From: Parasynechococcus marenigrum WH 8102
GTDB taxonomy: Bacteria; Cyanobacteriota; Cyanobacteriia; PCC-6307; Cyanobiaceae
Assembly: GCF_000195975.1 (NCBI RefSeq)
Contig: NC_005070.1
Location: forward strand, 1,830,001 to 1,862,000
Direction: 5' to 3'
DNA: 32,000 nt
Numbering within the stretch: position 1 is the stretch's first letter; each line of letters starts with the position of its first letter. Below, piece after piece: positions 13,148 through 27,228 of this stretch. The translations under genes were made by a program, and so were the position numbers. The notes under the pieces are model-generated. The model did not search any database and was not told where the DNA came from. It was given only the letters and a program-made list of their open reading frames with translations.

Positions 13148-13230
13148 CGGGTCGGTGCCCGAGTGGTTAATGGGGGCGGACTGTAAATCCGCTGGCTCTG
13201 CCTACGTTGGTTCAAATCCAACCCGGCCCA
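13148..13230 (+). tRNA. trnY: tRNA-Tyr (anticodon GTA), long variable arm
   Basis: The acceptor stem pairs GGGTCGG with CCGGCCC. The anticodon loop is CTGTAAA and the T-loop is GGTTCAAATCC. The overall sequence is very close to plastid/cyanobacterial trnY-GUA. No CCA is encoded. Confidence 0.9.
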
Positions 13231-13240
13231 TCCTCCACAT

Positions 13241-13312
<72 letters not shown>

Positions 13313-13317
13313 CTCAC

Positions 13318-13387: not shown

Positions 13388-14308
13388 ATGCCTCGCCAAA
13401 ATCAAGACGTTCCTTACGTCCGCAGGGACCGAGGCGATCGGACGCTGTACTACAGGCAAATACCTGGCCGCCTTCGTCCTCATTTCGACAACAGGCGAAC
13501 CTGGAATCGAGCGTTACCAGGAAACCCAGGGGCCGCGGCATGGCACCGGGCCTATGCGGCAGCTCATTCCGAATTTGAAGATTTACTTCAGGCAGCCAAA
13601 GCTGCAACTGCTGAACATGACCCGCCAAAGGGCCAATTCACGGCAAGTGCTGAGCGCCAATTCAGGATGCGACAGCGGGACATCGCGGCAGTAGCAGCAG
13701 ATCCTCTGCGGAAAATGCTGCGGAGAATCCGAGGGGAGGACGTTGAAGCCGACTTCTCCGGGCTAGAGCCCCTCTGCAGAAAGCTCTTTGAGCTGATCGG
13801 TCCTGATTGGGAGGGCATGGGTCGAGATCAGTGCCTGAAGCAGCTCATGAAGCGGCTTGAGCAGCTCGCGCGAAACGATCGGGAGCAAGTGATCTACCTA
13901 ATTGTTCTGATTAAACACACTTTGCTGGAGACGACGTTGGCATCAACGCAGATCACCCCAGATCTGGACGATCAGCGGCGTATCAGCAAGCAGATGGGGC
14001 GATATCTCGGGGACCTGGCTGGCGACGTAGAGCGATTGGCCCAAGGTGACTATCGGCCTGGGGATTTGGAAGCGAAATCTCCCGAATTGCCTAAGCGAGT
14101 GACGACTTGGGAGGACTGCCTCTCTGCGTGGAGCAGGAAGCAGGGAAGCGTCCGAAAAGTTGATGGGTTTGGGGTGAGTGAGAAAAGAGAGCAAAAGCAC
14201 CGGCGCTCCATCCGCCAGATTCAGGATTGGACGGAAGAGCAGACCGGGCGAAGACTGGAAGCCGGCGAGATGACACCAATATTACAATCAATACCAAAGA
14301 CAAATTAG
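13388..14308 (+). pseudogene. Tyrosine-recombinase (phage integrase) N-terminal part only; catalytic domain missing
   Basis: The N-terminus MPRQNQDVPYVRRDRGDRTLYYRQIPGRLRPHF resembles the arm-binding N-terminal domain of island integrases (DUF6538-like). The stretch TWEDCLSAWSRK...SEKREQKHRRSIRQIQDW resembles the start of the SAM-like core-binding domain. No R...HxxR...Y catalytic region follows. The ORF runs into AT-rich DNA at about 14270 and stops. Confidence 0.6.
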
Positions 14309-14331
14309 TTGTTGAGAAGCTTTATTTGGTT

Positions 14332-14463
14332 ATGAATATGGAGGATTATTGGGGAATGAAAGATGAAGAAAACTGGATGTACGGTAACTACGAAAATCAA
14401 TTGTTACTAATCACAGCATTTTTATGCTTTCTGGTCCCTAGCCTTAGCGGACTTGTTTTTTGA
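14332..14463 (+). CDS. Possible 43-aa membrane peptide
   Basis: The peptide is MNMEDYWGMKDEENWMYGNYENQLLLITAFLCFLVPSLSGLVF. Its stop lies 2 nt before the ATG of the next gene. No family is recognised. Confidence 0.2.
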   Translation: MNMEDYWGMKDEENWMYGNYENQLLLITAFLCFLVPSLSGLVF

Positions 14464-14465
14464 CC

Positions 14466-14753
14466 ATGCGTCTTTCTCGCTCAAGAATCTCAACAAAGCA
14501 CGATTTCGAATATGCGGTCAAGTGGGAAAACTTGAGAGCTGCGTACTTCCGGGCCAATGGTCAACCTGCTCGGGCTGACGATTGCACCAAAAACATCAGT
14601 GAGCTTGAATGGCGACTAGCAATGCTTCCAACAGCCGAGCAGACCGAAACGCCCATTGCTGATGGCTTTGTCGATGCTGAGTGGAGCACAGCTGCCGAAA
14701 CGATGACCAATGCAGGTTGGCATCAAGAAGTGAAGGAACCTGTCGCCGTCTGA
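14466..14753 (+). CDS. Small protein, FEYA-WE-ELEWR family, copy 1
   Basis: MRLSRSRISTKHDFEYAVKWENLRAAYFRANGQPARADDCTKNISELEWRLAMLPTAEQ... is clearly paralogous to 14859-15065 and 23460-23711. Confidence 0.6.
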   Translation: MRLSRSRISTKHDFEYAVKWENLRAAYFRANGQPARADDCTKNISELEWRLAMLPTAEQTETPIADGFVDAEWSTAAETMTNAGWHQEVKEPVAV

Positions 14754-14858
14754 CAAAGTTCGCCTACAGAAACCTAAAAAGCAGGAAAAAGAGATACAAC
14801 ATTACTCAACCTTGCGTGTCAACTAATAGTTAGCCTCGCAGACATTTAATTGAATCTC

Positions 14859-15065
14859 ATGCCACGTTTCCGCAAAGGTCAATTATCTACAAAGACAGAT
14901 TTCGAATATGCAATCTATTGGGAGTATTTAAGAGAGGAGTATTTTAGAGTTAAGGGAAATCAACCCAAGTCTGATGAATGTCAAGGCAGAATCAAAGAAC
15001 TAGAATGGCGCTACGCAACAAGATTCGGTGGGTATGAAGTCGATACCTCTTCAAACAATAATTAA
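14859..15065 (+). CDS. Small protein, FEYA-WE-ELEWR family, copy 2
   Basis: MPRFRKGQLSTKTDFEYAIYWEYLREEYFRVKGNQPKSDECQGRIKELEWRYA... carries the same motif order as copies 1 and 3. Confidence 0.6.
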   Translation: MPRFRKGQLSTKTDFEYAIYWEYLREEYFRVKGNQPKSDECQGRIKELEWRYATRFGGYEVDTSSNNN

Positions 15066-15190
15066 AAAGATATTGGCGTAAAGCCATCCGACAAAATCTT
15101 TATAAAGGCCTAAAACTGATAAAAAGTTTGCGAGACATCTAATATCCTCTGACAAGACTTATCCGGCTGAACAAAAAAAATAAACATCGA

Positions 15191-15526
15191 CTATGGACAA
15201 TTGATTCTTTCCATCCCAGCTTTGATTGTCTGCTCTTGTTCTCTAAGCTGTTCTATCTCAGCAACAGCTGGAATAGCAGGCACAAAGGCGTTGACTTGCA
15301 CTGTAAGCAGGTTGACTTCTTCATTCTTTATTTCACGCAATGCATTCGCACCTGATAGACAAGCAAGAGTTATTGACTTCAGGTCGGCATCATCTTTGTT
15401 CTCTACCTTCTTGATTGATGAGATTGCTGACTGTATATTCTCCATCAGGTTTCCAGTCATTGCGAATACTGTAGTTGGAGTAAGTGCAAGTAATGCACAC
15501 AGAATTATTCCGAGTAATCGGTTCAT
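15191..15526 (-). CDS. Secreted hypothetical protein
   Basis: The 111-aa protein has a clear signal peptide, MNRLLGIILCALLALTPTTVFA. The mature part is helical and charged with 2 Cys. No family is recognised. Confidence 0.6.
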   Translation of the reverse strand: MNRLLGIILCALLALTPTTVFAMTGNLMENIQSAISSIKKVENKDDADLKSITLACLSGANALREIKNEEVNLLTVQVNAFVPAIPAVAEIEQLREQEQTIKAGMERINCP

Positions 15527-15576
15527 ATCAAATAGTGGCTTCAGTCAATTCTAATTTCTACAGCCAATGAAGCAAT

Positions 15577-15647
15577 AGCTATCTGTTGTGAGTACGCCGG
15601 CTAACGCCGGCTTTAAAGATTGATGTTCATAAGGGAGTTAACCCCCA
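15577..15647 (+). promoter_or_regulatory. Conserved leader with GCCGGC-TAAC-GCCGGC hairpin (copy A)
   Basis: AGCTATCTGT lies at 15577-15586, the hairpin at 15596-15611 followed by TTT, and the ATG 36 nt later. The same blocks occur in the same order and spacing upstream of the paralogous gene at 24064. Confidence 0.4.
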
Positions 15648-16363
15648 ATGACATTCTCCTCTGTGCCCATTGCTTCAGATCAGTTCGACCAACTTGCGGA
15701 AGACATTCCTGGGTTTACCAGCGATGAAAAACTGCTAAAGGAAACGCTCCAAACAACCATCTTTGTGTCAGGAGCATCATCCTCTTCTGATGGCCGTGCT
15801 TCCTACATTCTTGGAAATGATGGTGAAAGAGTGTGGCTACCAAATACGCTCGCTTGTTGGGTTAACAATCTTAAAATCGTGACTCAAACCTATGAACAGT
15901 ACGATCCAGTTGAAAAGCTGCTTGTTTATGTGACAAGCATCAATTCCACATCATGGATATAACGCACGGGCTTGGATTCATGGGCAAGTTCATCATTGCT
16001 TACAAACATCAAATCCATGTCACCAGCAATGATCAATGAGCGTGTTCAAATCAGCCTGAAGCCTAAAGGTCGCGCGTGTTTCATTGATGTTTCTGCAATC
16101 ACAGAAGATCAATCTGATTACAAGCGTGTTCAAATCAAGGAGGCTGACTTAGGCCGCAAGCTCGGATACACCGAGATGCTCGATGTCATTTCGTATTCTA
16201 TCTGGCACAATCCAGCATGGGAGCCCAGATGGCTACAGCATCCGTCGAACCCAAGCAGCTACCAGCAACCTCTGAGACCTCTTCAGAAGCTCTTGAAGCT
16301 ATGGCTAAACCCACGCGATCTAGGCGCAAGTCCAAAGCACCTGCAAAGGCTACAACCGCATGA
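15648..16363 (+). pseudogene. Disrupted paralog of the 237-aa island protein (24064-24777)
   Basis: The sequence is collinear with the intact copy over the whole length, at roughly half of positions identical. An in-frame TAA at 15963-15965 sits where the paralog has Tyr (WI*RTG versus WSYRTG). A 1-nt frameshift lies near 16197. After it, the homologous C-terminus (LAQSSMGAQMATASVEPKQLPATSETSSEALEAMAKPTRSRRKSKAPAKATTA*) is read in another frame and ends at 16363. Confidence 0.7.
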
Positions 16364-16398: not shown

Positions 16399-16408
16399 GA
16401 TACTTGAT

Positions 16409-16433
16409 AGCCGGTTAACACCGGCTGTTTTTT
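16409..16433 (+). terminator. Second tandem rho-independent terminator
   Basis: The hairpin AGCCGG-ttaaca-CCGGCT is followed by GTTTTTT. Confidence 0.6.
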
Positions 16434-16522
16434 AGTGGTCGAAATGTAAAAGATGGATAGTTCCAACCAGGATCTCGAGGCATCAACAACTTCGGCCACC
16501 AAACCCACTAACTACTCACACT

Positions 16523-17290: not shown

Positions 17291-17393
17291 CGGTTCGCGT
17301 AACAGAACTTTGTCAACTATTGTATCGGGGTGCGCCTGGTTTCGCACTGCGTCGTTTCTCTAGGGCTGTGAGGGCACGGCCTTGCTTTCTCCT

Positions 17394-17588
17394 ATGACTC
17401 ACCCGTTCGGCGCCACGAAGACTGATCTCGAAAAAGCCTTCCGTCTGAAGGCTGCTTCGAAGTCAAAGACCAACAAACAAAAGCTGGAGTCCCTGGAGTT
17501 CACCGAATCAGAGCTGGCGACGATCCTCTTTGAGCATCCGATCTTGGGCTCCCTAGCGGACTATCCAAATGGCCGCCTACTCGGATAG
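17394..17588 (+). CDS. Small hypothetical protein sharing its C-terminal 27 aa with 18199-18378
   Basis: The protein is MTHPFGATKTDLEKAFRLKAASKSKTNKQKLESLEFTESELATILFEHPILGSLADYPNGRLLG. Its 3' part lies inside direct repeat R1. Confidence 0.45.
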   Translation: MTHPFGATKTDLEKAFRLKAASKSKTNKQKLESLEFTESELATILFEHPILGSLADYPNGRLLG

Positions 17589-17699
17589 CTAGCCAACTGG
17601 CTACTCAGTTAAGGCGCAGCATCCTCCAGGGCCTAACGGCTCCAAGGAAGAGGAGCTTCTGAGCTAAGGCCGCGATAAGAACGCTGATCCTCCCTAGCC
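17491..17699 (+). repeat. Direct repeat R1 (~205 bp)
   Basis: R1 aligns with 18282-18483 at high identity, with a few substitutions and one indel near the 3' end. It covers the last ~30 codons of a small ORF plus ~110 nt downstream. Confidence 0.85.
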
Positions 17700-18198: not shown

Positions 18199-18378
18199 AT
18201 GACGCGCTGCACTTGGCTTCTTGGAGAAAGCCTTCTGACTGCCGGATGCCTCATTACAGGAGCAGAAGCAAAATATGAGCCCCTGAAGCTCAGCGAATCA
18301 GAGCTGGCGACGATCCTCTTTGAGCATCCCATCTTGGGCTCCCTAGCGGACTATCCAAATGGCCGCCTACTCGGATAG
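18199..18378 (+). CDS. 59-aa ORF with signal-like N-terminus and the shared SESELATILFEHPILGSLADYPNGRLLG C-terminus
   Basis: Manual translation gives MTRCTWLLGESLLTAGCLITGAEAKYEPLKLSESELATILFEHPILGSLADYPNGRLLG. It is one residue below the ORF-track cutoff. Its 3' part lies in repeat R2. Confidence 0.4.
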   Translation: MTRCTWLLGESLLTAGCLITGAEAKYEPLKLSESELATILFEHPILGSLADYPNGRLLG

Positions 18379-18483
18379 CTGGCCAACTGGCTAACCAGTT
18401 AAGGCGCAGCACCCTCCAGGGCCTAACGGCTCCAAGGGAGGGGGGCTACTGAGGCCGCGAGAAGAACGCTGTCCTTCCCGAGC
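18282..18483 (+). repeat. Direct repeat R2 (~205 bp)
   Basis: This is the partner of R1 (17491-17699), in the same orientation. Confidence 0.85.
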
Positions 18484-19890
18484 GATGCGACCATCGGTAC
18501 AACCAAGTTCGCCGCACCACTGAACTTTTTGGCGAACGCACCAAGTCTTTTCAGGATTCCGAAGCACAGAACGGTGTCTCCTACGATCGCTCACGCAGGA
18601 GACAGGGGTTCTGCCAGCTCTCAGATCGCTCTACTGAGGCCGTCGCGTGTGGATGAACTCCCCATGTCCGCGCACAGCAAATATGGGGCCAAGCAGCGTG
18701 TTCGGCAACACGTCTTTTGGTCATTTTTGGATTCCAGAAAATCTCCCGTGAAGCCCTATGAATCTGGTATGGGAGGACACGGACAAGAGAGTTGCTATCT
18801 GCAGAATTCAGTCCACGCCTGGCTTTTCGCTCCAGCTGCTTTTCGATCCTTGATGCCAATGCGAATTTTCAGCCAAGGCAGCCAATGTGCTCTAGCAGGC
18901 AATTCAGGGCTCTGTTCCTGCTCCCCATAAGGGCTTAGTTGGGCGCCATCCCTGGTGCTGCAATGACTTCCACATCTGCTCTGTTGAGTCTTTCTGGAGG
19001 TGGCGTCGTTGCTCCAGCAGAGGTGGTCCCATCGGGCATCGCTCGACCCCGATCGACGAAAACCTTTGGATCCCTGACCCAAGCAGATTCATCCCTTTAG
19101 AACCGCCACACCCAGTGGTCGTTGGCGTCGATCAACCATCCTTCTCTCATCAAGCCACCTCCGGGCACCAGCCGATCTCGCGCTCACCCCTAAGCATCCA
19201 CTGATCAGTCTTCGACAGCCTTCTGAGCGATAGCTGCAGACACTCAGAAGTTCATTTGACCTGAGAGCCATAGCTCGTGCCACATCGCAGCAGGAGACGA
19301 GCTCAGTGCCAAAAAGCAAGTCGTAAAGATGGCTCCGGTGGTCAAGCCAACGCCCATCACGATCAGCGCAGTCAGTCCCTGCTCGTCGGTCAGCGGACGG
19401 TTGTCTAAGAAACGGCGCTTCGCCATTGGCTGGATATCGCTGTTTACGTTCTGCCAATCGAACCAGCTGAGTGGCAACAGGCCATTGCACTCATACTGCA
19501 ACTTCTAGGCACGTCCTTCTCACAATCGGCTGATTGCTCTTCTGAGGCAATGCGCCTTAATGCCGATAACTTTGTGCCCTCAAGGCACACAAACTGAGTT
19601 CAATGCGATCGGAGGCGCCATAAAAGACGAAACTCCACCCCAGCAGATCGCAGTAGCTGACTGACTTTCTGGCCCCTGCTCCAACAGTCTCAAAAATGAC
19701 CTGCGTTGGTCCTTTGGTAGGCACGCATTGGTCCGCCACGCCATTCGACGCTCCGCTTGCACCGTTTCAGGTGCCCTAGGAGAAAATGATCCTTCCATTA
19801 GAGCAAATGGCCCCAGGGCGCCTTTAGCCAAAAGCTTCGACCCTCTTTCTTCAGAAATGATGGGTTGAACCATGCACAAGCGAGCGAGCG

Positions 19891-20770: not shown

Positions 20771-22159
20771 ATGAAAGACAAAATCGTCGTTCTCGACACG
20801 AATGTTCTGCTTCACGATCCTGAGGCTCCACACCGCTTTGGAGATCTGAGGGTTGTGATCCCAATGCAAGTGGTTGAGGAAATTGATCGCTTTAAAAAAG
20901 ATCACTCTGAAAAAGGCCGAAACGCCCGGCGAATTTCAAGACTCCTGGATTCCTATCGAGACCGCGGATGCCTTGCCGATGGTGTTCCCATTGAGGGCAC
21001 GAATCACGGCCTGCTTCAGGTAATTTTCTGTCAGGCCCATGCTCTTGACGCCTTACCGGCAGAGCTTCAGGGGGGCGGCGGCGACAACAACATCCTCGCA
21101 GTGGCCCTTGAGCAGCTGCGGCGCGGTGGGCTGAAACAGGCCCCGGAGGTTGTGCTGATCAGCAAAGACATCAACCTGAGAATCAAGGCCGACGCGGTAG
21201 GCCTGCAAGCCGAGGACTACGTCAATGACAACGTCTCGATTGATGACCTCTATGCAGGGTTCCGGGAACTCAGCACTGATGCAGTGACGATCTCGAGTCT
21301 GCATGACGAGGGTCAGCTCCCTCTGGACGCTGTCACCGATCCAGAGGGGCAGCACCCACAGGCAAATGAAGGCGTGGTGCTGGTGGATGAGCGCAACGAC
21401 AGCCGCACCTTGCTTGCCCGGCGTCAAGGAAACAGCAACTCACTTAAACCACTTGACTGGCTGAATCGTGCCCATTTGGGACGGATCAAGGCGAGAAATC
21501 GGGAGCAAAGTTTTGCGCTGGATTTGCTGCTCGATCCATCCGTTGCTCTGGTGACCCTAGTGGGCAAGGCAGGCACAGGCAAAACGCTGCTGGCCATTGC
21601 CGCTGGTTTGCACCAGGTGGCCGACACCCATCACTACGCCCGTCTGCTGGTGACACGTCCGCCAATCTCCCTCGGCAAAGACATTGGCTACCTGCCTGGA
21701 ACGCTTGAAGAGAAACTTGGGCCTTGGATGAAGCCGATCATCGACAACATCGACTTCATCACCGGCTCTTCTCCCGGCGAGGACTCTGAGCAGAAGAAGA
21801 AGCAGCGGCACCGCGAACCACGCAACGCCTGGGCTGATCTGCAAGGCATGGGTTTGTTGGAGGTTGAAGCGATAAACACCATCCGCGGGCGCTCAATTCC
21901 CCAACAGTTTCTGGTGGTGGATGAAGCGCAAAACCTGACGCCCTTGGAAGTGAAGACGATCGTCACGCGGGTGGGTGAAGGAACCAAGGTTGTCTTTACC
22001 GGTGATCCGTATCAAATCGACAACCCATACGTGGATGCCGAAAGCAACGGGCTCACATGGCTGGTGGAAAAGCTCAAAGATCAGCCTCTGGTAGGACACA
22101 TGACCCTCACCAAAGGAGAGCGCAGTGAACTGGCTGAACTAGCCGCCAACATCCTCTGA
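20771..22159 (+). CDS. PhoH2-type protein: N-terminal PIN-domain nuclease fused to a PhoH-like ATPase
   Basis: The PIN start reads KIVVLDTNVLLHDP with acidic residues downstream. The PhoH module has Walker A LVGKAGTGKTLLA, Walker B LVVDEAQNLT and the motif FTGDPYQID. Confidence 0.9.
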   Translation: MKDKIVVLDTNVLLHDPEAPHRFGDLRVVIPMQVVEEIDRFKKDHSEKGRNARRISRLLDSYRDRGCLADGVPIEGTNHGLLQVIFCQAHALDALPAELQGGGGDNNILAVALEQLRRGGLKQAPEVVLISKDINLRIKADAVGLQAEDYVNDNVSIDDLYAGFRELSTDAVTISSLHDEGQLPLDAVTDPEGQHPQANEGVVLVDERNDSRTLLARRQGNSNSLKPLDWLNRAHLGRIKARNREQSFALDLLLDPSVALVTLVGKAGTGKTLLAIAAGLHQVADTHHYARLLVTRPPISLGKDIGYLPGTLEEKLGPWMKPIIDNIDFITGSSPGEDSEQKKKQRHREPRNAWADLQGMGLLEVEAINTIRGRSIPQQFLVVDEAQNLTPLEVKTIVTRVGEGTKVVFTGDPYQIDNPYVDAESNGLTWLVEKLKDQPLVGHMTLTKGERSELAELAANIL

Positions 22160-22183
22160 GGCAAGACAACACCATCGTTATTA

Positions 22184-23080
22184 ATGACTGTTGAACAAAT
22201 GACTCAATTTCCAGAAACCTCAACACCTGAGCAAGCCAATCTGGATGCCATTCTGAATTCACCTACTTACAGAATTGCCCATGAAGATCCCGAGTTGATG
22301 AACAGCAATGTCATGCGTGGTGTGCGCATGCTGCTTGAAATCACCAAGCCGGATCTGCATCTGGAGACAGCCGGGATAGAATCGACGATCATTGTCTTTG
22401 GTGGTGCCAGGATCGTCGACAGAGACACCGCTCATCAGCGGCTAAAAGATGCAGAGAAAAATTTTAACCAAGATCCAAATTCATCAACTCTAAAGAGGAA
22501 AGTGATTAATGCTCAGCACTTAATTGAACTTTCTCGTTTTTATGACGCCGCTCGACAATTTGCCTACTTGGCGTCCCAGCATGGTCAGGCCAGCAAGGGG
22601 CAAGGCCATGGCTGCGCATCTCATGTAATCGTGACTGGTGGTGGTCCCGGAATCATGGAAGCTGCCAACCGTGGCGCATTTGATGCAGGATGCCGATCAA
22701 TCGGACTCAACATCACACTTCCCTTTGAACAACACCCCAATCCCTACATCACACCAGATCTTTGCTTCAAATTCAATTATTTCTCACTCCGCAAATTTCA
22801 CTTTGTGATGCGCTCTGTGGGAGCTATTTTATTTCCAGGAGGTTTTGGCACGCTTGATGAACTGTTTGAGTTGCTGACCTTGCGGCAAGTTGGAACTAAA
22901 GGACGCATGCCAATTGTGTTATTTGGAACAGAGTTCTGGACGAAGCTTGTGGACTTCGACTACCTCGCCGAATCAGGCTTAATTTCAAATGATGACCTAG
23001 CTCTAATTCGTTTTTCGGATACTGCCGAGGAAGCCTGGGAATATATACAAAGCAGCACTGAGCCAGTCCGCGGGCAATGA
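22184..23080 (+). CDS. LOG family (TIGR00730-type, lysine-decarboxylase-like) nucleotide N-glycosidase-fold protein
   Basis: Motifs IIVFGGARI, VTGGGPGIMEAANRGA and the hallmark PGGFGTLDELFE are present. The gene starts 24 nt after the PhoH2 stop on the same strand. Confidence 0.9.
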   Translation: MTVEQMTQFPETSTPEQANLDAILNSPTYRIAHEDPELMNSNVMRGVRMLLEITKPDLHLETAGIESTIIVFGGARIVDRDTAHQRLKDAEKNFNQDPNSSTLKRKVINAQHLIELSRFYDAARQFAYLASQHGQASKGQGHGCASHVIVTGGGPGIMEAANRGAFDAGCRSIGLNITLPFEQHPNPYITPDLCFKFNYFSLRKFHFVMRSVGAILFPGGFGTLDELFELLTLRQVGTKGRMPIVLFGTEFWTKLVDFDYLAESGLISNDDLALIRFSDTAEEAWEYIQSSTEPVRGQ

Positions 23081-23246
23081 AGAAACAATGCCATTAATTG
23101 ATATCGATTTGGTTGCTATTATGTGCTTGACTCGTAGAGGTATGTAAAGCGATCAACAAGAGAGTCCAACCTATTCCTTTCATGGGTGGTCTGGTCTCTC
23201 AACCATTACCACATCACATGTTTAAAGATGCGTAAGCCCGCGACAT

Positions 23247-23276
23247 AGGCCTTCTTTTCACCAGGAAGAGCGGCCT
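23247..23276 (+). repeat. Hairpin element copy E2 (13-position stem, ACCA loop); possible terminator of the PhoH2-LOG operon
   Basis: AGGCCTTCTTTTC-ACCA-GGAAGAGCGGCCT is followed by TCCTCTTT. It lies 167 nt downstream of the LOG stop. Confidence 0.5.
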
Positions 23277-23459
23277 TCCTCTTTAGGAAGTTACGAACAA
23301 TAGGGCCATCCTCCTGCAAGTTAGTCTTATTAAACCTGGGTTGTTTGGCACTCAAGTCCGCCGTGAAGCCTTGGTACGGATAGTACGAAAAATATTGCGA
23401 CAAAAACCATCGGGTAGCTGTCTTCTGCTTACTAGTTTTGATGCATCTACAGTTGTTTG

Positions 23460-23711
23460 ATGAACTTCCGAGTGCGCCTAAGAAGCAGATCCGACTACGA
23501 ATATGCAATTCTCTGGGAGAACGTTCGAGTCGAATATTTTACTAGTGTTGGTGATCAACAGCGGGCTGATCAATGCAAGAAATACTCGCAGGAGTTGGAG
23601 TGGCGCTTGGCCATGCTTCCATCGGCTGATCAGCTTGAAAAAAGCTCAAGTGATCCGCTAGCAGATTCCGGATGGATGCCTTCTGAGGAAATACCTAATT
23701 TCACTCAATAA
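23460..23711 (+). CDS. Small protein, FEYA-WE-ELEWR family, copy 3
   Basis: MNFRVRLRSRSDYEYAILWENVRVEYFTSVGDQQRADQCKKYSQELEWRLAMLPSADQ... shares even the RLAMLP(T/S)A(E/D)Q tail with copy 1. Confidence 0.65.
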   Translation: MNFRVRLRSRSDYEYAILWENVRVEYFTSVGDQQRADQCKKYSQELEWRLAMLPSADQLEKSSSDPLADSGWMPSEEIPNFTQ

Positions 23712-23994
23712 CAACAGTAAGCGCCGTATCTTAGCTCTTTACCCCTGATAAACTACTGAAAAAACGCTCCTGAGGACCCTAAATCTGGTGAAATTTTTGC
23801 GTGAGGTTTAATCCCCTCAGACTTGTTCCTGTCAGGTGAGTAAAAAAAAGAAACTGGAGATAAGACTTCTGCTTTTTGGAGTGGTGGCTTGTCTATGCCA
23901 GACACAACAGAGCTTCTGACATTTCACTGAGTTCTGCACACGTGTCTGGCTGGAATGATTGCGCCTGCCGCGCCAACAAACAGGCGCTAAGCGA

Positions 23995-24063
23995 AGCTAT
24001 CTGTCGCAACTCGCCGGCTAACGCCGGCTTTGAGCGTGGGTGTTCTTTCTGGAATCAACCCAG
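23995..24063 (+). promoter_or_regulatory. Conserved leader with GCCGGC-TAAC-GCCGGC hairpin (copy B)
   Basis: AGCTATCTGT lies at 23995-24004, the hairpin at 24013-24028 followed by TTT, and the ATG 35 nt later. The layout mirrors 15577-15647. Confidence 0.4.
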
Positions 24064-24777
24064 ATGACATTCACTCCTGTTCCTGTCCTTCGTAACGGGC
24101 AGCTAGAAAGATTGGCCCAAGACTGCCCAGGCTTCTCGGACGAAGAGGAACGACTGATCCATGACGATCGCAAAACGATCTTCATCGCAGGCGCTAGTGC
24201 AGCATCCCAGGGCCGTGCGGCTTACTGCCTCGGCGATAAGGGCGAACGTGTCTGGCTTCCTAACTGCCTGACATGTTTCCTCAATCGGATCGACATCACC
24301 ACCCAGCAATACGAGCGCTTCGACCCACGGGAGATGCTCATCGTCCACACCACCTCCATCAATGGCGAGTGCTGGAGCTACCGCACAGGCTTTGACAGCC
24401 ACGCTGCAAGTTCACTACTGAGCTGCATCAAGGCCATGTCTCCTGCCCAACTGGCGGAGCGGGTGCAGCTAACGCTGGTTCCGAAAGGACGAGCAACGTT
24501 CATCAACATGAGCACCATCTCCTCAGACCAAACCGGCTACTGCCGTGTGCGGGTTCCTGATGCAGATGTCGGGAGAAAGCTTGGCTACTCCGAGCAACTT
24601 GACATCATTTCCTACTTTCATCTCTCACAGACCAAGGCCCAAGCAGCTCTGACTGCAACTCCTGCGGTTGCAGCTGAGCTTGAGCCAACGCCTGTCGAGG
24701 CTGAAGTCATAGAGGCAATGGCGAAGCCCAAACGACCAAGGCGTAAGTCCAAAGCACCGGCTGAGAGACAAGTCTGA
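24064..24777 (+). CDS. Island protein of unknown function, 237 aa, with a Lys/Arg/Pro-rich C-terminal tail (intact copy)
   Basis: I place the start at MTFTPVPV, matching the MTFSSVPI start of the paralog. Conserved blocks include GERVWLPN, SSLL..IK.MSPA, PKGRA.FI and VGRKLGY. The tail is AMAKPKRPRRKSKAPAERQV. A terminator-like hairpin follows. Confidence 0.75.
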   Translation: MTFTPVPVLRNGQLERLAQDCPGFSDEEERLIHDDRKTIFIAGASAASQGRAAYCLGDKGERVWLPNCLTCFLNRIDITTQQYERFDPREMLIVHTTSINGECWSYRTGFDSHAASSLLSCIKAMSPAQLAERVQLTLVPKGRATFINMSTISSDQTGYCRVRVPDADVGRKLGYSEQLDIISYFHLSQTKAQAALTATPAVAAELEPTPVEAEVIEAMAKPKRPRRKSKAPAERQV

Positions 24778-24782
24778 ATCAA

Positions 24783-24808
24783 AGGCCCCATCAGAGCAGG
24801 GGCCTTTC
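24783..24808 (+). terminator. Terminator-like hairpin
   Basis: AGGCCCC-atcagagc-GGGGCCT is followed by TTTCCCC, a weak U-tract. Confidence 0.45.
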
Positions 24809-25017
24809 CCCTGGGTTGGCGCTGACCGTCTCCCAGCGCTTGAGCGAACGAACCTCCTAGAGCTACTGAATTGCTTAAGAAACAAGCCTGGCTTCGCGGC
24901 TACTAAGCGCGTAGCTTAATTCGGTAGCAGATGCTACTAATCGTTCACTCCGTTATCGCGGAGCGCAGTCAAGCCAGGCCATGGAACGGGGACCTGGATT
25001 TCTTCGAGGAACACCCA

Positions 25018-25200
25018 ATGACAACCCTTCTGTATCGCGGCAACGAGTACGTCCAGCAGAACAAGGCTGCTGAAACATCCCCTGTGCAGCTGACCTACCG
25101 TCGCAACGTTTACCAGGGGCGCCTGAACGAGGCCGCTCTTCATAACGTTGCCCTCACTGGCGTTCAGCTCACCTACCGCGGCGTTTCTTACACACGCTGA
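25018..25200 (+). CDS. DUF4278-like small cyanobacterial protein
   Basis: The 60-aa protein has the repeated L-x-YRG-x-x-Y pattern: LLYRGNEY, LTYRRNVY, LTYRGVSY. Confidence 0.7.
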   Translation: MTTLLYRGNEYVQQNKAAETSPVQLTYRRNVYQGRLNEAALHNVALTGVQLTYRGVSYTR

Positions 25201-25260
25201 TTTGGTAGCAGCACTCACAGTCAGCGGCTCTGGTGCTGGGGCTTAATAGGCCCAGCACCA

Positions 25261-25485
25261 ATGACTGGTTTGGACTTAGTCGCTCAGAGCTCTCCCAAAG
25301 GAATGCTTGCTGTAAGCCCTGCAAGCGTCCATGGCATGCTCTGGCTTCAAACACACTTCTCGAAAGAAAGCTGGGAAGCTTTGGCTCGTGGCCAAGCTGT
25401 TTTCAGTCAAGATTGTGTTGATGAACTCCTCAACGACGCAAGAAGCGCAGGCCTGAAGATTGACGCTTCTACCATTCTTTCCTGA
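25261..25485 (+). CDS. Hypothetical 74-aa protein
   Basis: The protein is MTGLDLVAQSSPKGMLAVSPASVHGMLWLQTHFSKESWEALARGQ... and is followed by a terminator. The start is uncertain because a strong hairpin abuts the ATG. Confidence 0.5.
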   Translation: MTGLDLVAQSSPKGMLAVSPASVHGMLWLQTHFSKESWEALARGQAVFSQDCVDELLNDARSAGLKIDASTILS

Positions 25486-25512
25486 GAAGGTTGAAAATCC
25501 TAGATGCATTAA

Positions 25513-25543
25513 AGCCCATGCAGATGCAGGGGCTCTTTTGTTT
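25513..25543 (+). terminator. Rho-independent terminator
   Basis: AGCCCATGCA..TGCAGGGGCT (one mismatch) is followed by CTTTTGTTT. Confidence 0.55.
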
Positions 25544-25791
25544 ATTAAAATGTGAAAGTTGCCAGCCTAAGGTGATTGTCAAATCCAAGCCCGACGACCT
25601 AAATAGCCGCTAATAGCTGCGCTCAGAAACAATTGTCCATCGATCAAGTGACCGAGCCAAGCAACAACAAACACGCCCTTGGATAAAGTTTATTTGCGAT
25701 GTAACGAGCGAGCATCGTGCGGTGTAACGAGTCCAACCTCAGGGGCAGTCCGAAGCAAAACGTCAGTATTTACAAGGGTTTTGGCGGATGC

Positions 25792-25820
25792 AGTTCAACA
25801 CTTAAGGGCCGACAAGGGCT
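25792..25820 (+). repeat. Candidate attR: remnant of the tRNA-Thr 3' end
   Basis: AGTTCAA lies at 25792-25798. CGACAAGGGCT at 25810-25820 is identical to the last 11 nt of tRNA-Thr. The repeat ends 1 nt before the stop codon of the core GH13 gene. Confidence 0.65.
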
Positions 25821-25821
25821 T

Positions 25822-27228
25822 TTATCCCTGCAGATGCACCACTGCAGATTGCGGCTCTAGAGCTTGTCCATCGCAGGCGCCACAACTCCAGATTCTGGAA
25901 ATCCCAGGATCAATCTGCAGCGAGGTCGTGGTGCTGCGGTTAACCCAGACGCTTAAACCGCCAGGGGTGCTTCCCAGCAGTCCGTCGCGTCCGATCGGCT
26001 CCCACTTCAGATCGCCGCGAATGAGATTGGGTTGATTTCGCCGGAGATCAGCCAAGGCCGCAATGGTTGAGCTCAGATCCGCAGGCCAGGGTTCACCCCA
26101 GGGAAAGGCTTCACGACAGGCGGGTTCCGGGCCACCGCACAATCCAGATTCGGTGCCGTAGTACACGCATGGGGCCCCTTGCTGCAGAAAGATCAGCAGC
26201 AGGGCGAGCTTCAGAGCCTTCACATCTCCATCGAGGCTGTGGAGTGCCCGAGGAACATCGTGGCTATCGAGCAGGTTCATCTGAGCTCGATTCACGGCTG
26301 GGCGGTACCAACCGGACGTGGTGCTCCAGATTTCGATCAAATCCTCGCTACTGAGGGGATTCAGTGGGTACTCCGGATTGCGGTATCCCTGCCTCAACCG
26401 ATCTCCTGCCACCCAGCCGAGGCTGCTCCAGCCGAGGCGGTAATTCATCACCCCATCAAAGTGCTCGCCCCGCAGCCACTCCCGGGCATCACCCCAGATC
26501 TCACCCACGATCCAGGCGTCAGGGTTGACCTCCCGCACCACGCGACGGAAATCCACCCAGAACTCGGCTGGCACTTCCGCGGGCACATCCAGACGCCAAC
26601 CATCGATGCCCCGTTCCAGCCAGAAACGACCCACCTCCAACAGATGGTCCCGCACTGCGGGATTGGCATGGTTGAACTTGGGCAGATCAGGCACAGCCCA
26701 CCAGCAATCGTAGCCGCAGTCCTCGCCCTCGGCCGGATACGGCTTTACAGGCCAGCGGTGCACATTGAACCAATCCCGGTAGGGGGAGTCCTGGCCGTTT
26801 TCCACCAGGTGATGAAAGGCCCAGAAGCCACGGCCGCAGTGGTTGAACACACCATCGAGCACCAGCCGCATGCCCCGCTGGTGTAAGGCTGCGATCAACG
26901 TATCCAGAGCGTCATTCCCCCCCAGCAGGGGATCCACCTCGAAATAGTCGTAGGCGTGATAGCGGTGATTGGCGGCGGAGCTGAAGATCGGCGTGAGGTA
27001 CAGGCAGCTGATGCCCATGGCCTGCAGCTGATCCAACGCCTCGATCACCCCGTAGAGATCCCCCCCTTGAAAGCCCTGCTCACGGGGATCACTGCCCCAG
27101 GGCTTCAGCTCAAGATGTTGCTGAGCCTTCACCTGACCACTGCGGCGGAATCGATCCGGAAAGATCTGATACACCACGGCATCCGCCACCCAGGCCGGTG
27201 GGTCGTGGAAGGGCGTGGAGGACGCCAT
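25822..27228 (-). CDS. GH13 alpha-amylase-family glycoside hydrolase (alpha-glucosidase/neopullulanase-like)
   Basis: Conserved GH13 regions are present: DAVVYQIFPDRF, LVLDGVFNHCG, GWRLDVPAEVP, VGEIWG and LLDSHDV. I place the start at ATG 27228 (MASSTPF); the longer ORF would run into the glpK start region. Confidence 0.9.
   Translation of the reverse strand: MASSTPFHDPPAWVADAVVYQIFPDRFRRSGQVKAQQHLELKPWGSDPREQGFQGGDLYGVIEALDQLQAMGISCLYLTPIFSSAANHRYHAYDYFEVDPLLGGNDALDTLIAALHQRGMRLVLDGVFNHCGRGFWAFHHLVENGQDSPYRDWFNVHRWPVKPYPAEGEDCGYDCWWAVPDLPKFNHANPAVRDHLLEVGRFWLERGIDGWRLDVPAEVPAEFWVDFRRVVREVNPDAWIVGEIWGDAREWLRGEHFDGVMNYRLGWSSLGWVAGDRLRQGYRNPEYPLNPLSSEDLIEIWSTTSGWYRPAVNRAQMNLLDSHDVPRALHSLDGDVKALKLALLLIFLQQGAPCVYYGTESGLCGGPEPACREAFPWGEPWPADLSSTIAALADLRRNQPNLIRGDLKWEPIGRDGLLGSTPGGLSVWVNRSTTTSLQIDPGISRIWSCGACDGQALEPQSAVVHLQG

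What the first reader, a model, noticed from the sequence alone, without database searches (positions are those of the whole stretch)
23460..24777. Intact copy of a recurrent two-gene module of unknown function (84-aa ELEWR protein plus 237-aa basic-tailed protein): best candidate for an undescribed system
The island carries the same gene order twice. A small FEYA-WE-ELEWR protein is followed on the same strand by a ~237-aa protein, at 14466-16363 and at 23460-24777. The two modules have diverged: the large proteins are identical at roughly half their positions and DNA similarity outside short blocks is low. So they are old paralogs or independent acquisitions rather than a recent duplication, yet synteny and a structured leader are retained. 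That argues for a functional pairing. I recognise neither protein. The large one ends in a KPKRPRRKSKAP-type tail suggestive of nucleic-acid binding. The small one has a conserved single Cys and an invariant ELEWR motif. A small regulator or partner plus an effector in a mobile island would fit an element-maintenance, exclusion or defence function, but that is speculation.
Basis: partly seen in the sequence, partly recalled or inferred. Interest (0 to 1): 0.7.

Follow-up and report, generated by a model that had tools for sequence, protein, structure and literature searches.

The report
Orphan mobile-element module with structured leader
The repeated small-gene/large-gene pair is real. It is a leftover piece of small integrase-carrying mobile elements of marine Synechococcus: its large protein is an undescribed, probably single-stranded-nucleic-acid-binding protein, always preceded by a conserved RNA leader that hides its start codon, and the small "partner" gene is interchangeable.

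Summary
An 83-aa ELEWR gene (23460-23711), a 352-nt spacer and a 237-aa gene (LF, 24064-24777) recur at 14460-16363. That first module has two tandem ELEWR genes, and its LF was recently inactivated (TAC->TAA at 15962 plus a 1-nt deletion). Both families are under purifying selection. Neither matches Pfam, NCBIfam, PHROGs, PADLOC or PDB sequences.

LF is rare and found only in marine picocyanobacterial contexts. It is the constant gene. In other clades its upstream neighbour is an unrelated 121-aa protein, an HTH protein or a 60-aa protein. LF is usually the last gene of an operon in integrase-bearing, tycheposon-like elements, in several cases directly downstream of a DUF3987 helicase. One such element assembles as a 9.9-kb apparent circle.

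A confident AlphaFold core has OB-fold topology. Its weak fold matches are ssDNA binders, including phage SSB, DUF669, LEF-3 and PrgE.

Every LF gene examined carries a roughly 55-nt leader. It has a covarying 6-bp hairpin with an invariant UANC loop, a GUGUYC box, and a second hairpin that pairs the AUG. The same leader precedes other cassette genes in these elements and is absent from Rfam.

Best reading: these are orphaned accessory replication modules of tycheposon-like elements, not a stand-alone two-gene system.

The parts
13241..13313 (+). tRNA-Thr(GGT), preceded by tRNA-Tyr at 13149-13230. It marks the left edge of the low-GC island.
   Evidence: ARAGORN, Rfam, GC profile
13391..14320 (+). 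Truncated, inward-facing tyrosine-integrase remnant (N-terminal part only)
   Evidence: tblastn gives 28% identity to the integrase of the SYN20 LF-carrying element. There is no Pfam catalytic-domain hit. The same remnant is present in syntenic L007.
14460..14753 (+). ELEWR paralog 1 (97 aa from TTG; ATG at 14466)
14850..15065 (+). ELEWR paralog 2 (71 aa), in tandem.
   Evidence: (repeat D3)
15191..15526 (-). Gene for a 111-aa signal-peptide protein inserted in the spacer of module 1
   Evidence: 100% conserved in L007-L011; no family hit
15592..15647 (+). Structured leader of LF copy 1 (hairpin GCCGGC-TAAC-GCCGGC at 15596-15611)
   Evidence: repeat D4; 43.5 bits
15648..16363 (+). LF copy 1, a pseudogene: TAA at 15960-15962 and a 1-nt deletion near 16195
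   Evidence: the intact allele is P0006 in L007
16406..16449 (+). Copy of the leader consisting of the UAAC hairpin and T-run only, downstream of LF copy 1
   Evidence: (24 bits, E=0.003)
23374..23459 (+). Conserved region upstream of ELEWR. It is the left limit of the segment shared with mobile contigs L012/L013.
   Evidence: blastn; alignment A8
23460..23711 (+). ELEWR gene of the intact module (83 aa). It has an Arg-rich N-terminus, an acidic core and an acidic W-containing tail.
23712..24008 (+). Spacer conserved among ELEWR-type modules. It is a possible long 5' UTR, promoter or ncRNA; its structure is not established.
24009..24063 (+). Structured leader. Hairpin 1 has stems 24013-24018 and 24023-24028 with loop TAAC. 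The GTGTTC box is at 24040-24045. The inner hairpin pairs CTGG 24049-24052 with CCAG 24060-24063 and abuts the ATG.
24064..24777 (+). LF, intact, 237 aa. It has a predicted OB-fold core (about residues 30-200), an acidic linker (201-220) and a basic tail KPKRPRRKSKAP.
24784..24807 (+). Hairpin downstream of LF (GGCCCC-N9-GGGGCC followed by TTT), a probable terminator
   Evidence: sequence; the simple scan did not call it on the + strand
24939..25200 (+). Glutamine-II riboswitch (24939-24998) and its downstream DUF4278 peptide gene (about 25018-25200). They travel with LF on L012/L013 and L037.

Best explanation
The two modules are independently acquired, orphaned pieces of small integrative, tycheposon-like mobile elements of marine picocyanobacteria.

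LF is the conserved functional core. It is a previously undescribed protein with an OB-fold-type core and a flexible acidic linker ending in a basic tail. It is encoded as the last gene of an element operon, in several element lineages directly downstream of the DUF3987 (VirE-type) helicase. I infer that it binds single-stranded nucleic acid and serves the element's replication or recombination as an element-encoded SSB-like or annealing-like protein.

Its synthesis appears to be gated at the RNA level by a conserved leader of about 55 nt. The leader consists of a GC hairpin with an invariant UANC loop, a U-rich run, a GUGUYC box that pairs with codons 2-4, and an inner hairpin containing the AUG. 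This structure would keep the start codon sequestered until something opens it. The same leader precedes other cassette genes of these elements.

ELEWR is one of several interchangeable small upstream genes. It is probably a clade-specific regulator or partner, not an obligatory half of a two-gene system.

Shown: the gene family distribution, the contexts, the pseudogenisation of copy 1, leader covariation, the predicted fold topology, and the absence of known-family matches. Inferred: ss-nucleic-acid binding, a replication role, translational gating, and the role of ELEWR.
For: Distribution:
- LF has 21 clusters at 90% identity and 71 representatives at 50% identity among 1.84 billion proteins.
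- It has one hit among 185,579 species genomes, a Synechococcus SAG.
- It has none in phage, plasmid or IMG/VR collections.

Context:
- LF lies next to or convergent with tyrosine integrases in L001, L002-5, L015/16 (Synechococcus SYN20), L018/19, L020-23 and L049.
- The operon RHH-DUF3987-HTH-p60-(p205)-LF is found in L001, L033, L049-52.
- In L049 the DUF3987 ORF reads through the joined contig ends, as expected for a 9,948-bp circle.
- The ELEWR-LF-riboswitch segment of the window (23374-24756 and 24917-25200) is 78-84% identical to contigs carrying DUF3854, ParA and a resolvase.
- The window has a truncated integrase beside tRNA-Thr.

Fold:
- The AF2 model built on 32 sequences has pLDDT 83-96 over residues 30-200. 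Its strand/helix order is b(68-81)-b(89-98)-b(103-109)-helix(113-130)-b(134-141)-b(144-152), which is the OB topology.
- The weak PDB Foldseek hits include several OB folds or ssDNA binders: Whirly, PrgE, Teb1, AIM2-HIN and SubB.
- BFVD gives 13 hits at E<=1e-3. Most of the annotated hits among the top 50 are SSB, DUF669 or LEF-3.

Leader:
- 95.8% of cells are paired and 6/6 pairs show double-sided changes. 0/500 shuffles reach this, and slid controls give 26-52%.
- The covariance model hits every LF examined at 40-53 bits, except the L025/L046/L047 variants (19-30 bits).
- Fold z-scores range from -2.7 to -3.8.
- P(AUG paired) is 0.77 versus 0.55 in shuffles, Wilcoxon p=2e-4, n=24.

Selection: LF dN/dS is 0.10-0.16.
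Against: - No sequence-level link to any SSB family: Pfam, NCBIfam and PHROGs are empty, and hhalign against T7 gp2.5 gives probability 0.1%.
- Fold matches are weak. The best PDB E-value is 5e-3 with TM <=0.26 normalised to the query. The top BFVD hits are uncharacterised, with TM 0.37-0.49.
- The C-terminal tip is basic, whereas classical SSB and gp2.5 tails are acidic.
- In several LF elements the large neighbouring proteins (619-864 aa) have no helicase or primase signature and no Walker A motif. The 'replication module' label is therefore secure only for the DUF3987 lineage.
- The window copy at the LOG locus persists without any integrase or helicase in several Synechococcus lineages. 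This could mean a host-beneficial function unrelated to element replication.
- Hairpin 1 followed by a U-run could simply be an intrinsic terminator.
Confidence: 0.45

Rival explanations
1. ELEWR plus LF is a self-contained two-gene system (exclusion, defence, addiction or anti-defence). Hosts retain it after the carrier element has decayed. ELEWR would be the regulator or antidote and LF the effector.
For: - The pair recurs in at least 5 contexts and on at least 3 backbones, and ELEWR stays next to LF even when the LF allele is swapped (L025, L046/47).
- Both genes are under purifying selection.
- The LOG-locus copy is kept intact in the window, A18-46.1 and several metagenomic lineages with no integrase nearby.
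- ELEWR has an acidic, Trp-containing tail and LF a basic tail, which could interact (inference).
Against: - LF occurs with unrelated upstream genes in most other clades.
- hhalign finds no similarity between ELEWR and p60, p121 or RHH proteins.
- ELEWR occurs alone.
- There is no PADLOC hit.
- One of the two copies in this genome has just been inactivated without loss of its ELEWR genes. That is unlike a toxin-antitoxin pair if LF were the antitoxin, but it is compatible if LF were the toxin.
Confidence: 0.15
2. LF is primarily an RNA-binding regulator. It binds the UANC hairpin or the leader shared by several cassette genes and controls their translation or termination, in the manner of T4 gp32 autoregulation or of antitermination. 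It would not be a DNA replication protein.
For: - The leader is strictly co-inherited with LF across clades that are only about 20-40% identical.
- The same leader also precedes p121 and other genes of the same operons.
- The invariant loop bases argue for sequence-specific recognition.
- The OB fold and basic tail are compatible with RNA binding.
Against: - There is no direct evidence of binding.
- Leader copies also occur in elements only as terminator-like hairpins.
- LF sits directly downstream of the DUF3987 helicase in one element lineage, which favours a DNA role.
Confidence: 0.15
3. Both modules are functionless debris of decayed mobile elements. The leader hairpin is just an intrinsic terminator inherited with the cassette.
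For: - Copy 1 is a fresh pseudogene.
- The adjacent integrase is truncated.
- No replication or integration genes remain in the window island.
- In most clades hairpin 1 is followed by a U-run.
Against: - Copy 2 is intact. Its dN/dS is 0.10 against A18-46.1 and 0.16 against L012.
- The U-run is degenerate exactly in the ELEWR clade (TTTGAGCG, GTGTGTGG), yet the hairpin, the loop, the 11-nt spacing and the GUGUYC box are kept.
- The AUG-sequestering hairpin and the box-codon pairing are not terminator features.
Confidence: 0.15

Closest known systems
Tycheposons (Hackl et al., bioRxiv 10.1101/2020.12.28.424599) and tycheposon-like insertions in marine Synechococcus (Grebert et al. 2022, PMC8995045)
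   Same: - Marine picocyanobacterial host.
- A low-GC island abutting tRNA genes, with an inward-facing tyrosine integrase (a remnant here).
- Related loci carry an integrase, a small RHH, and a DUF3987/VirE-type helicase module, with cargo such as Nif11 peptides.
- Islands are built from decayed element fragments.
   Different: - The window holds only fragments.
- LF, ELEWR and the leader are not named in the text I could read. The paper lists only 'unk = conserved unknown' hallmark profiles.
- Several LF elements lack any recognisable primase or helicase.
- One backbone has DUF3854, ParA and a small serine resolvase instead.
Phage and plasmid-encoded non-canonical SSBs (T7 gp2.5-like, DUF669, baculovirus LEF-3, pCF10 PrgE)
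   Same: - Size of about 190-240 aa.
- Predicted OB topology with a helix between b3 and b4.
- A disordered C-terminal extension.
- Encoded by a mobile replicon next to replication genes.
- These are the annotated proteins that Foldseek retrieves.
   Different: - No sequence or profile similarity.
- Low TM-scores.
- The tail ends basic rather than acidic.
- LF has an extra N-terminal three-stranded sheet, a conserved N-terminal peptide (MTFxxVPI...GF) and a long C-terminal helix.
Translational operators and start-codon-sequestering leaders (for example T4 gene 32 autoregulation, RNA thermometers) and intrinsic terminators. These comparisons are from general knowledge.
   Same: - The hairpin plus U-run resembles a terminator.
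- The second structure pairs the AUG and early codons, as in translational repression elements.
   Different: - No Rfam family matches.
- The loop (UANC) and the spacing are invariant, which is unlike generic terminators.
- The motif is reused in front of several unrelated cassette genes.

Membership tests
Tycheposon / tycheposon-like integrative element | Site-specific (mostly tyrosine) integrase at one end, facing inward | tested here: met
   The window has only a truncated remnant at 13391-14320. Full integrases with Phage_integrase, SAM-like and DUF6538 domains flank LF in L015, L020, L002, L049. Membership in the tycheposon-specific integrase lineage was not tested phylogenetically.
Tycheposon / tycheposon-like integrative element | Integration at a tRNA gene / island abutting a tRNA | tested here: inconclusive
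   Module 1 lies directly downstream of tRNA-Tyr/tRNA-Thr. Module 2 (LOG locus) has no tRNA or att repeat nearby. The SYN20 element lies beside tRNA-Ser, but no att repeat was found.
Tycheposon / tycheposon-like integrative element | Small replication module (primase/helicase hallmark genes) | tested here: inconclusive
   There is none in the window. A DUF3987 helicase is in the same operon as LF in L001, L049-L052. Other LF elements have large proteins with no recognisable family and no Walker A motif.
SSB / gp2.5-like OB-fold ssDNA-binding proteins | OB-fold core (b1-b2-b3-helix-b4-b5) | tested here: inconclusive
SSB / gp2.5-like OB-fold ssDNA-binding proteins | Sequence/profile match to an SSB family | tested here: not met
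   No Pfam, NCBIfam, PHROG or PDB-sequence match. hhalign against T7 gp2.5 gives probability 0.1%.
SSB / gp2.5-like OB-fold ssDNA-binding proteins | Acidic C-terminal tail mediating partner binding | tested here: not met
   The linker 201-220 is acidic (pI 4.05) but the terminal 17 residues are basic (pI 12.0).
SSB / gp2.5-like OB-fold ssDNA-binding proteins | Binds single-stranded DNA | not testable with these tools
   Needs EMSA or fluorescence anisotropy with purified LF.
Known anti-phage defence systems / toxin-antitoxin | Match to a catalogued defence or TA protein family | tested here: not met
   PADLOC shows nothing for ELEWR, LF or p121. Pfam shows none.
Intrinsic (Rho-independent) terminator (hairpin 1) | GC-rich stem-loop immediately followed by a U-run | tested here: inconclusive
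   The U-run is present in the p121 and HTH clades. It is degenerate in the ELEWR clade: TTTGAGCG and TTTAAAGA in the window, GTGTGTGG in L006/L012. The simple terminator scan did not call 24013-24031.
Any Rfam RNA family (leader and spacer) | Covariance-model match at or near the gathering score | tested here: not met
   The gathering scan of the window and an E<=5 scan of 23400-24900 returned only chance-level hits in this region.

The most novel reading that the evidence does not exclude
The ~55-nt two-hairpin leader (UANC hairpin, GUGUYC box pairing with codons 2-4, AUG-containing inner hairpin) is a new, portable translational-control signal. It marks exchangeable gene cassettes in tycheposon-like elements. 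LF is the OB-fold protein that reads it, either as RNA or as the ssDNA form of the element. This would couple cassette expression to the element's single-stranded or replicating state. ELEWR-LF would then be a minimal version of this circuit that hosts have kept after the element decayed.
Probability: 0.15. Interest if true: 0.7.

Novelty: new variant of a known kind. Interest (0 to 1): 0.5.

Why it matters
Tycheposon-like elements are thought to build the genomic islands that drive niche adaptation in the ocean's most abundant phototrophs, yet most of their genes are unannotated.

This analysis identifies a conserved but unnamed core gene (LF). It sits in the helicase operon or beside the integrase in many such elements, and the analysis gives it a testable biochemical prediction: it is an OB-fold protein that binds single-stranded nucleic acid.

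It also defines a covarying RNA leader shared by several cassette genes. That leader could explain how these elements keep their genes silent until mobilised, and how cassettes are swapped.

For genome annotation, it shows that the 'two-gene system' seen in Synechococcus chromosomes is an element fragment. The LF profile together with the leader model can therefore be used to flag decayed elements.

Tried and rejected
- Family searches for ELEWR, LF, p121 and the large element proteins against Pfam, PHROGs, NCBIfam and PADLOC gave nothing meaningful.
- PDB sequence searches with LF, ELEWR and p121 profiles gave only chance hits.
- tblastn of LF against 50,697 phage and 72,556 plasmid records found no match. 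IMG/VR scans with LF patterns and with the leader pattern found none.
- The first AF2 model (20 sequences) was poor, with pLDDT 54. The second, with distant homologs added, was usable.
- hhalign of LF against T7 gp2.5 showed no similarity.
- I tested whether ELEWR is a diverged version of the other upstream partners (p60, p121) or an RHH protein. hhalign probabilities were <1% in every case, so this was rejected.
- I considered LF as an HUH or relaxase-type enzyme acting on the hairpin plus GTGT motif. There are no conserved His or acidic metal-site residues among the invariant positions, so this was rejected.
- I considered LF as ParB on the ParA contig. A separate 106-aa gene follows ParA there, so this was not favoured.
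- The sigma-70 promoter scan of 23000-25000 found no sites.
- RNAalifold on the 352-nt spacer predicts stems, for example GCCAGACAC...GTGTCTGGC, but with almost no compensatory changes among 6 sequences. No ncRNA is claimed.
- No att repeats were found for the SYN20 element. L012 shows no terminal overlap, so its circularity is unproven.
Full report
**1. Observation**

The window has high-GC flanks (0.60-0.68) around a low-GC island from about 13.3 to 25.7 kb. The island starts immediately after tRNA-Tyr (13149-13230) and tRNA-Thr (13241-13313).

ELEWR is at 23460-23711 (83 aa), the spacer is 352 nt, and a 237-aa ORF (here called LF) lies at 24064-24777.

A paralogous module lies at 14460-16363. 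The two LF copies are 54% identical over 184 aa (E=7e-75). The ELEWR copies are 39-43% identical and share an invariant core.

There are three ELEWR genes, because module 1 has a tandem pair at 14460-14753 and 14850-15065. Module 1 also carries a minus-strand gene for a 111-aa signal-peptide protein inside its spacer.

LF copy 1 is a pseudogene. Compared with an intact allele on a syntenic BATS metagenome scaffold (L007, protein P0006), it differs at four positions. Two of these are inactivating: TAC->TAA at 15962 and a 1-nt deletion near 16195.

Both gene families evolve under purifying selection. ELEWR dN/dS is 0.25-0.30 and LF is 0.10-0.16 at moderate divergence. Synonymous sites are saturated between the two window copies.

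**2. No known family**

Neither protein matches any of the following:
- Pfam, PHROGs, NCBIfam or PADLOC, whether as single sequences or across whole alignments.
- PDB sequences.

**3. Distribution**

LF is rare.
- It forms 21 clusters at 90% identity in a 5.8-billion-protein collection.
- It has 71 representatives at 50% identity among 1.84 billion proteins, many of them fragments.
- A profile search adds a distant subfamily, including SynSYN20_00845 of Synechococcus sp. SYN20 and a tail-less 195-aa group.
- Among one genome for each of 185,579 species, only a Synechococcus SAG matched.
- Phage records, plasmid records and IMG/VR gave nothing.

ELEWR has 38 clusters, including SynA18461_02271 of Synechococcus sp. 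A18-46.1.

**4. Genomic context**

I read 52 loci and typed them by tblastn.

ELEWR is followed by LF in these contexts:
- At the tRNA-Thr island (window, L007-L011, L029).
- At the LOG locus. The window here is 96.7% identical to A18-46.1 over 22000-26500. The same locus in L025 and L046/47 carries a different, P0021-like LF allele behind a 75-86% identical ELEWR.
- Next to argJ in SAG AG-670-A05 (L006).
- On contigs L012-L014, which also carry a DUF3854 protein, ParA and a small serine resolvase.

The window segments 23374-24756 and 24917-25200 are 78-84% identical to L012/L013. The first segment covers ELEWR, the spacer and LF. The second covers the glutamine-II riboswitch with its peptide gene. 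Module 2 is therefore a fragment shared with a mobile backbone.

In other LF clades the upstream gene is different:
- A 121-aa protein (p121) in L002-5, L015/16, L018/19, L037/38 and L041/42.
- An HTH_7 protein of 168-174 aa in L020-23, L030, L040/44.
- In L001, L033 and L049-52, the operon RHH-DUF3987 helicase-HTH-p60-(p205)-LF.

hhalign finds no relationship between ELEWR and p60, p121 or the RHH proteins. ELEWR also occurs without LF (L048, and a second copy in L046).

LF is typically the last gene of its operon. It lies convergent with a tyrosine integrase or with an integrase-RHH-large-protein operon.

In L049 the DUF3987 ORF reads seamlessly across the joined contig ends. This is consistent with a 9,948-bp circular element carrying integrase, RHH, DUF3987, p60 and LF.

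In the window, ORF 13391-14320 beside tRNA-Thr is a truncated integrase homolog.

This architecture matches published tycheposons and the tycheposon-like insertions of Synechococcus: a tRNA-adjacent island, an inward-facing tyrosine recombinase, a small replication module, cargo, and decay into fragments.

**5. What LF looks like**

An AF2 model built from 20 close homologs was poor (pLDDT 54). Adding the distant subfamily (32 sequences) gave pLDDT 83-96 over residues 30-200, with disordered ends.

The element order is a small three-stranded sheet (37-41, 53-56, 62-65), then b68-81, b89-98, b103-109, helix 113-130, b134-141, b144-152, and finally a long helix 175-197. The central part has the OB-fold topology.

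Foldseek against the PDB found nothing significant (best E=5e-3). The weak list includes a number of OB folds and ssDNA binders: Whirly/PBF-2, PrgE of pCF10, Teb1, AIM2-HIN, SubB and PUR-alpha.

Against BFVD there are 13 hits at E<=1e-3. The best two are uncharacterised phage proteins (6e-7 and 2e-6). Most of the annotated proteins further down are SSBs, DUF669 proteins or LEF-3.

A profile comparison with T7 gp2.5 shows no sequence similarity.

The C-terminus consists of an acidic linker (pI 4.05) followed by a basic tip KPKRPRRKSKAP (pI 12.0). This is the opposite charge to the tip of classical SSB tails.

I therefore treat 'OB-fold, single-stranded-nucleic-acid-binding' as the best-supported inference, not as family membership.

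**6. The leader**

Directly upstream of every LF gene examined, whatever the upstream partner, lies a conserved leader of about 55 nt. Its parts, in order, are:
- A 6-bp GC-rich stem with an invariant U-A-N-C tetraloop. In the window this is GCCGGC-TAAC-GCCGGC at 24013-24028 and 15596-15611.
- A U-rich run, which is degenerate in the ELEWR clade.
- A fixed 11-nt spacing to a (G)UGUYC box.
- A second small hairpin whose 3' arm abuts or includes the AUG.
- Genes that begin with AUGAC.

On 16 distinct sequences, 95.8% of stem cells pair and all six pairs show double-sided changes. None of 500 shuffles reach this, and slid controls give 26-52%.

Single-sequence folds predict the two-hairpin architecture with z-scores of -2.7 to -3.8.

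Across 24 distinct leaders the AUG is paired with mean probability 0.77, against 0.55 in shuffled controls (Wilcoxon p=2e-4). The box often pairs with codons 2-4, with apparent compensation: GUGUC:GACAC, GUGCU:AGCAC, UUGUU:GACAA.

A covariance model (R1) finds the leader in several other places:
- Before the p121 gene in five element types.
- Before a 94-aa and a 54-aa gene.
- Before a 133-aa gene in SYN20.
- As hairpin-only copies downstream of LF, including window 16406-16449.

It is not found before ELEWR. Rfam has no matching family.

L037 differs from L002 by one extra leader-plus-ORF unit between p121 and LF. This suggests that leader-bounded cassettes are the unit of exchange (inference).

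**7. The ELEWR-LF spacer**

Among ELEWR-type modules the 352-nt spacer is as conserved as the coding regions. RNAalifold finds stems with little covariation. No sigma-70-like promoter was detected. Its role is open; it could be a 5' UTR, a promoter or an ncRNA.

**8. Interpretation**

The best explanation is that the two modules are orphaned, independently acquired accessory modules of tycheposon-like elements. I put confidence at about 0.85 for this origin and about 0.45 for the mechanism.

In this reading LF is an element-encoded OB-fold protein acting on single-stranded nucleic acid in replication or recombination. Its translation is gated by the structured leader. ELEWR is a clade-specific upstream partner.

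The rivals are:
- A stand-alone ELEWR-LF system (0.15).
- LF as an RNA-binding regulator of the leader (0.15).
- Functionless debris with a plain terminator (0.15, partly overlapping for copy 1).

But the pairing is clade-limited and the 'undescribed system' reading is weakened.

**9. Novelty and score**

Both protein families and the leader motif are undescribed in the libraries searched. They sit inside a known kind of mobile element, and LF probably belongs to a known functional class.

I rate this as a new variant of a known kind, with interest 0.5. The leader and the LF family are worth following up experimentally. The 'two-gene system' as framed is not.

Noticed in passing
window 18441-18644 (-), with repeats at 17487-17663 and 18277-18453: There is a full-length Cyano-2 sRNA (Rfam RF01702, 189.7 bits) inside the island. 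One copy of a 177-nt direct repeat (93% identical) overlaps it (18277-18453) and the other lies about 800 nt upstream (17487-17663). The repeats also form the identical C-termini (…ESELATILFEHPILGSLADYPNGRLLG) of two small ORFs, 17382-17588 and 18199-18378.
   Followed up: no
window 24939-25200; L012 2675-2943; L037 9050-9172: A glutamine-II riboswitch (RF01704, 65 bits) with its downstream DUF4278 peptide gene lies directly after LF. It is co-inherited with LF on the mobile contigs L012/L013 (84% identical) and next to a p121-type LF in L037. The riboswitch cassette therefore travels with these elements.
   Followed up: partly
The tandem pair is conserved in L007-L011 and L029.
   Followed up: yes
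window 13391-14320: This ORF, directly after tRNA-Thr, is a truncated tyrosine-integrase homolog (28% identical to the SYN20 element integrase; no catalytic domain detected). It marks the island as a decayed tRNA-targeting element.
   Followed up: partly
window 15191-15526 (-): A gene for a 111-aa protein with an N-terminal signal peptide is inserted on the opposite strand in the spacer of module 1. It is 100% conserved in five metagenomic copies and has no family match.
   Followed up: partly
window 23712-24008: The ELEWR-LF spacer is conserved among divergent modules about as well as the genes. It includes blocks such as GGTTTAATCCCNTCAG, an A8 run, and GTGTCTGGCTGNGATGANTGCGCCTGCCGCGCC. It could be a long structured 5' UTR, an ncRNA or a promoter/operator region.
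   Followed up: partly
window 20771-23080: A PIN-PhoH ATPase gene (20771-22159) and a LOG/lysine-decarboxylase-like gene (22184-23080) sit between the two modules. The same PhoH-LOG-ELEWR-LF order occurs in A18-46.1, L025 and L046, with integrase fragments further upstream. These 'core-looking' genes may therefore be island cargo.
   Followed up: no
window 23206-23508 (-): A 100-aa minus-strand ORF overlaps the ELEWR start. It is conserved at 77-83% in several loci but split in A18-46.1 and L025. It is probably not a gene, or is a decaying one.
   Followed up: partly
L002-L005 (e.g. L002 472-3620): Arrays of seven Nif11-type (prochlorosin-like) precursor peptide genes lie immediately upstream of p121-LF in an integrase-bearing element. 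Lanthipeptide precursors therefore appear to be cargo of LF-carrying elements.
   Followed up: no
L049 (ENA ERZ841824 NODE_9443, 9948 bp): The contig begins and ends inside the same DUF3987 gene, and the ORF reads through the join. This suggests a complete circular 9.9-kb element carrying integrase, RHH, DUF3987, p60 and LF. No terminal overlap remains in the contig, so circularity needs read-level confirmation.
   Followed up: partly
L015 5022-6034: Three copies of a roughly 43-nt direct repeat (AACTACCACCA...ATGACTACTGCTA) spaced about 485 nt apart precede three successive small genes of the SYN20 element. This is another repeated gene-leader type within these elements.
   Followed up: no
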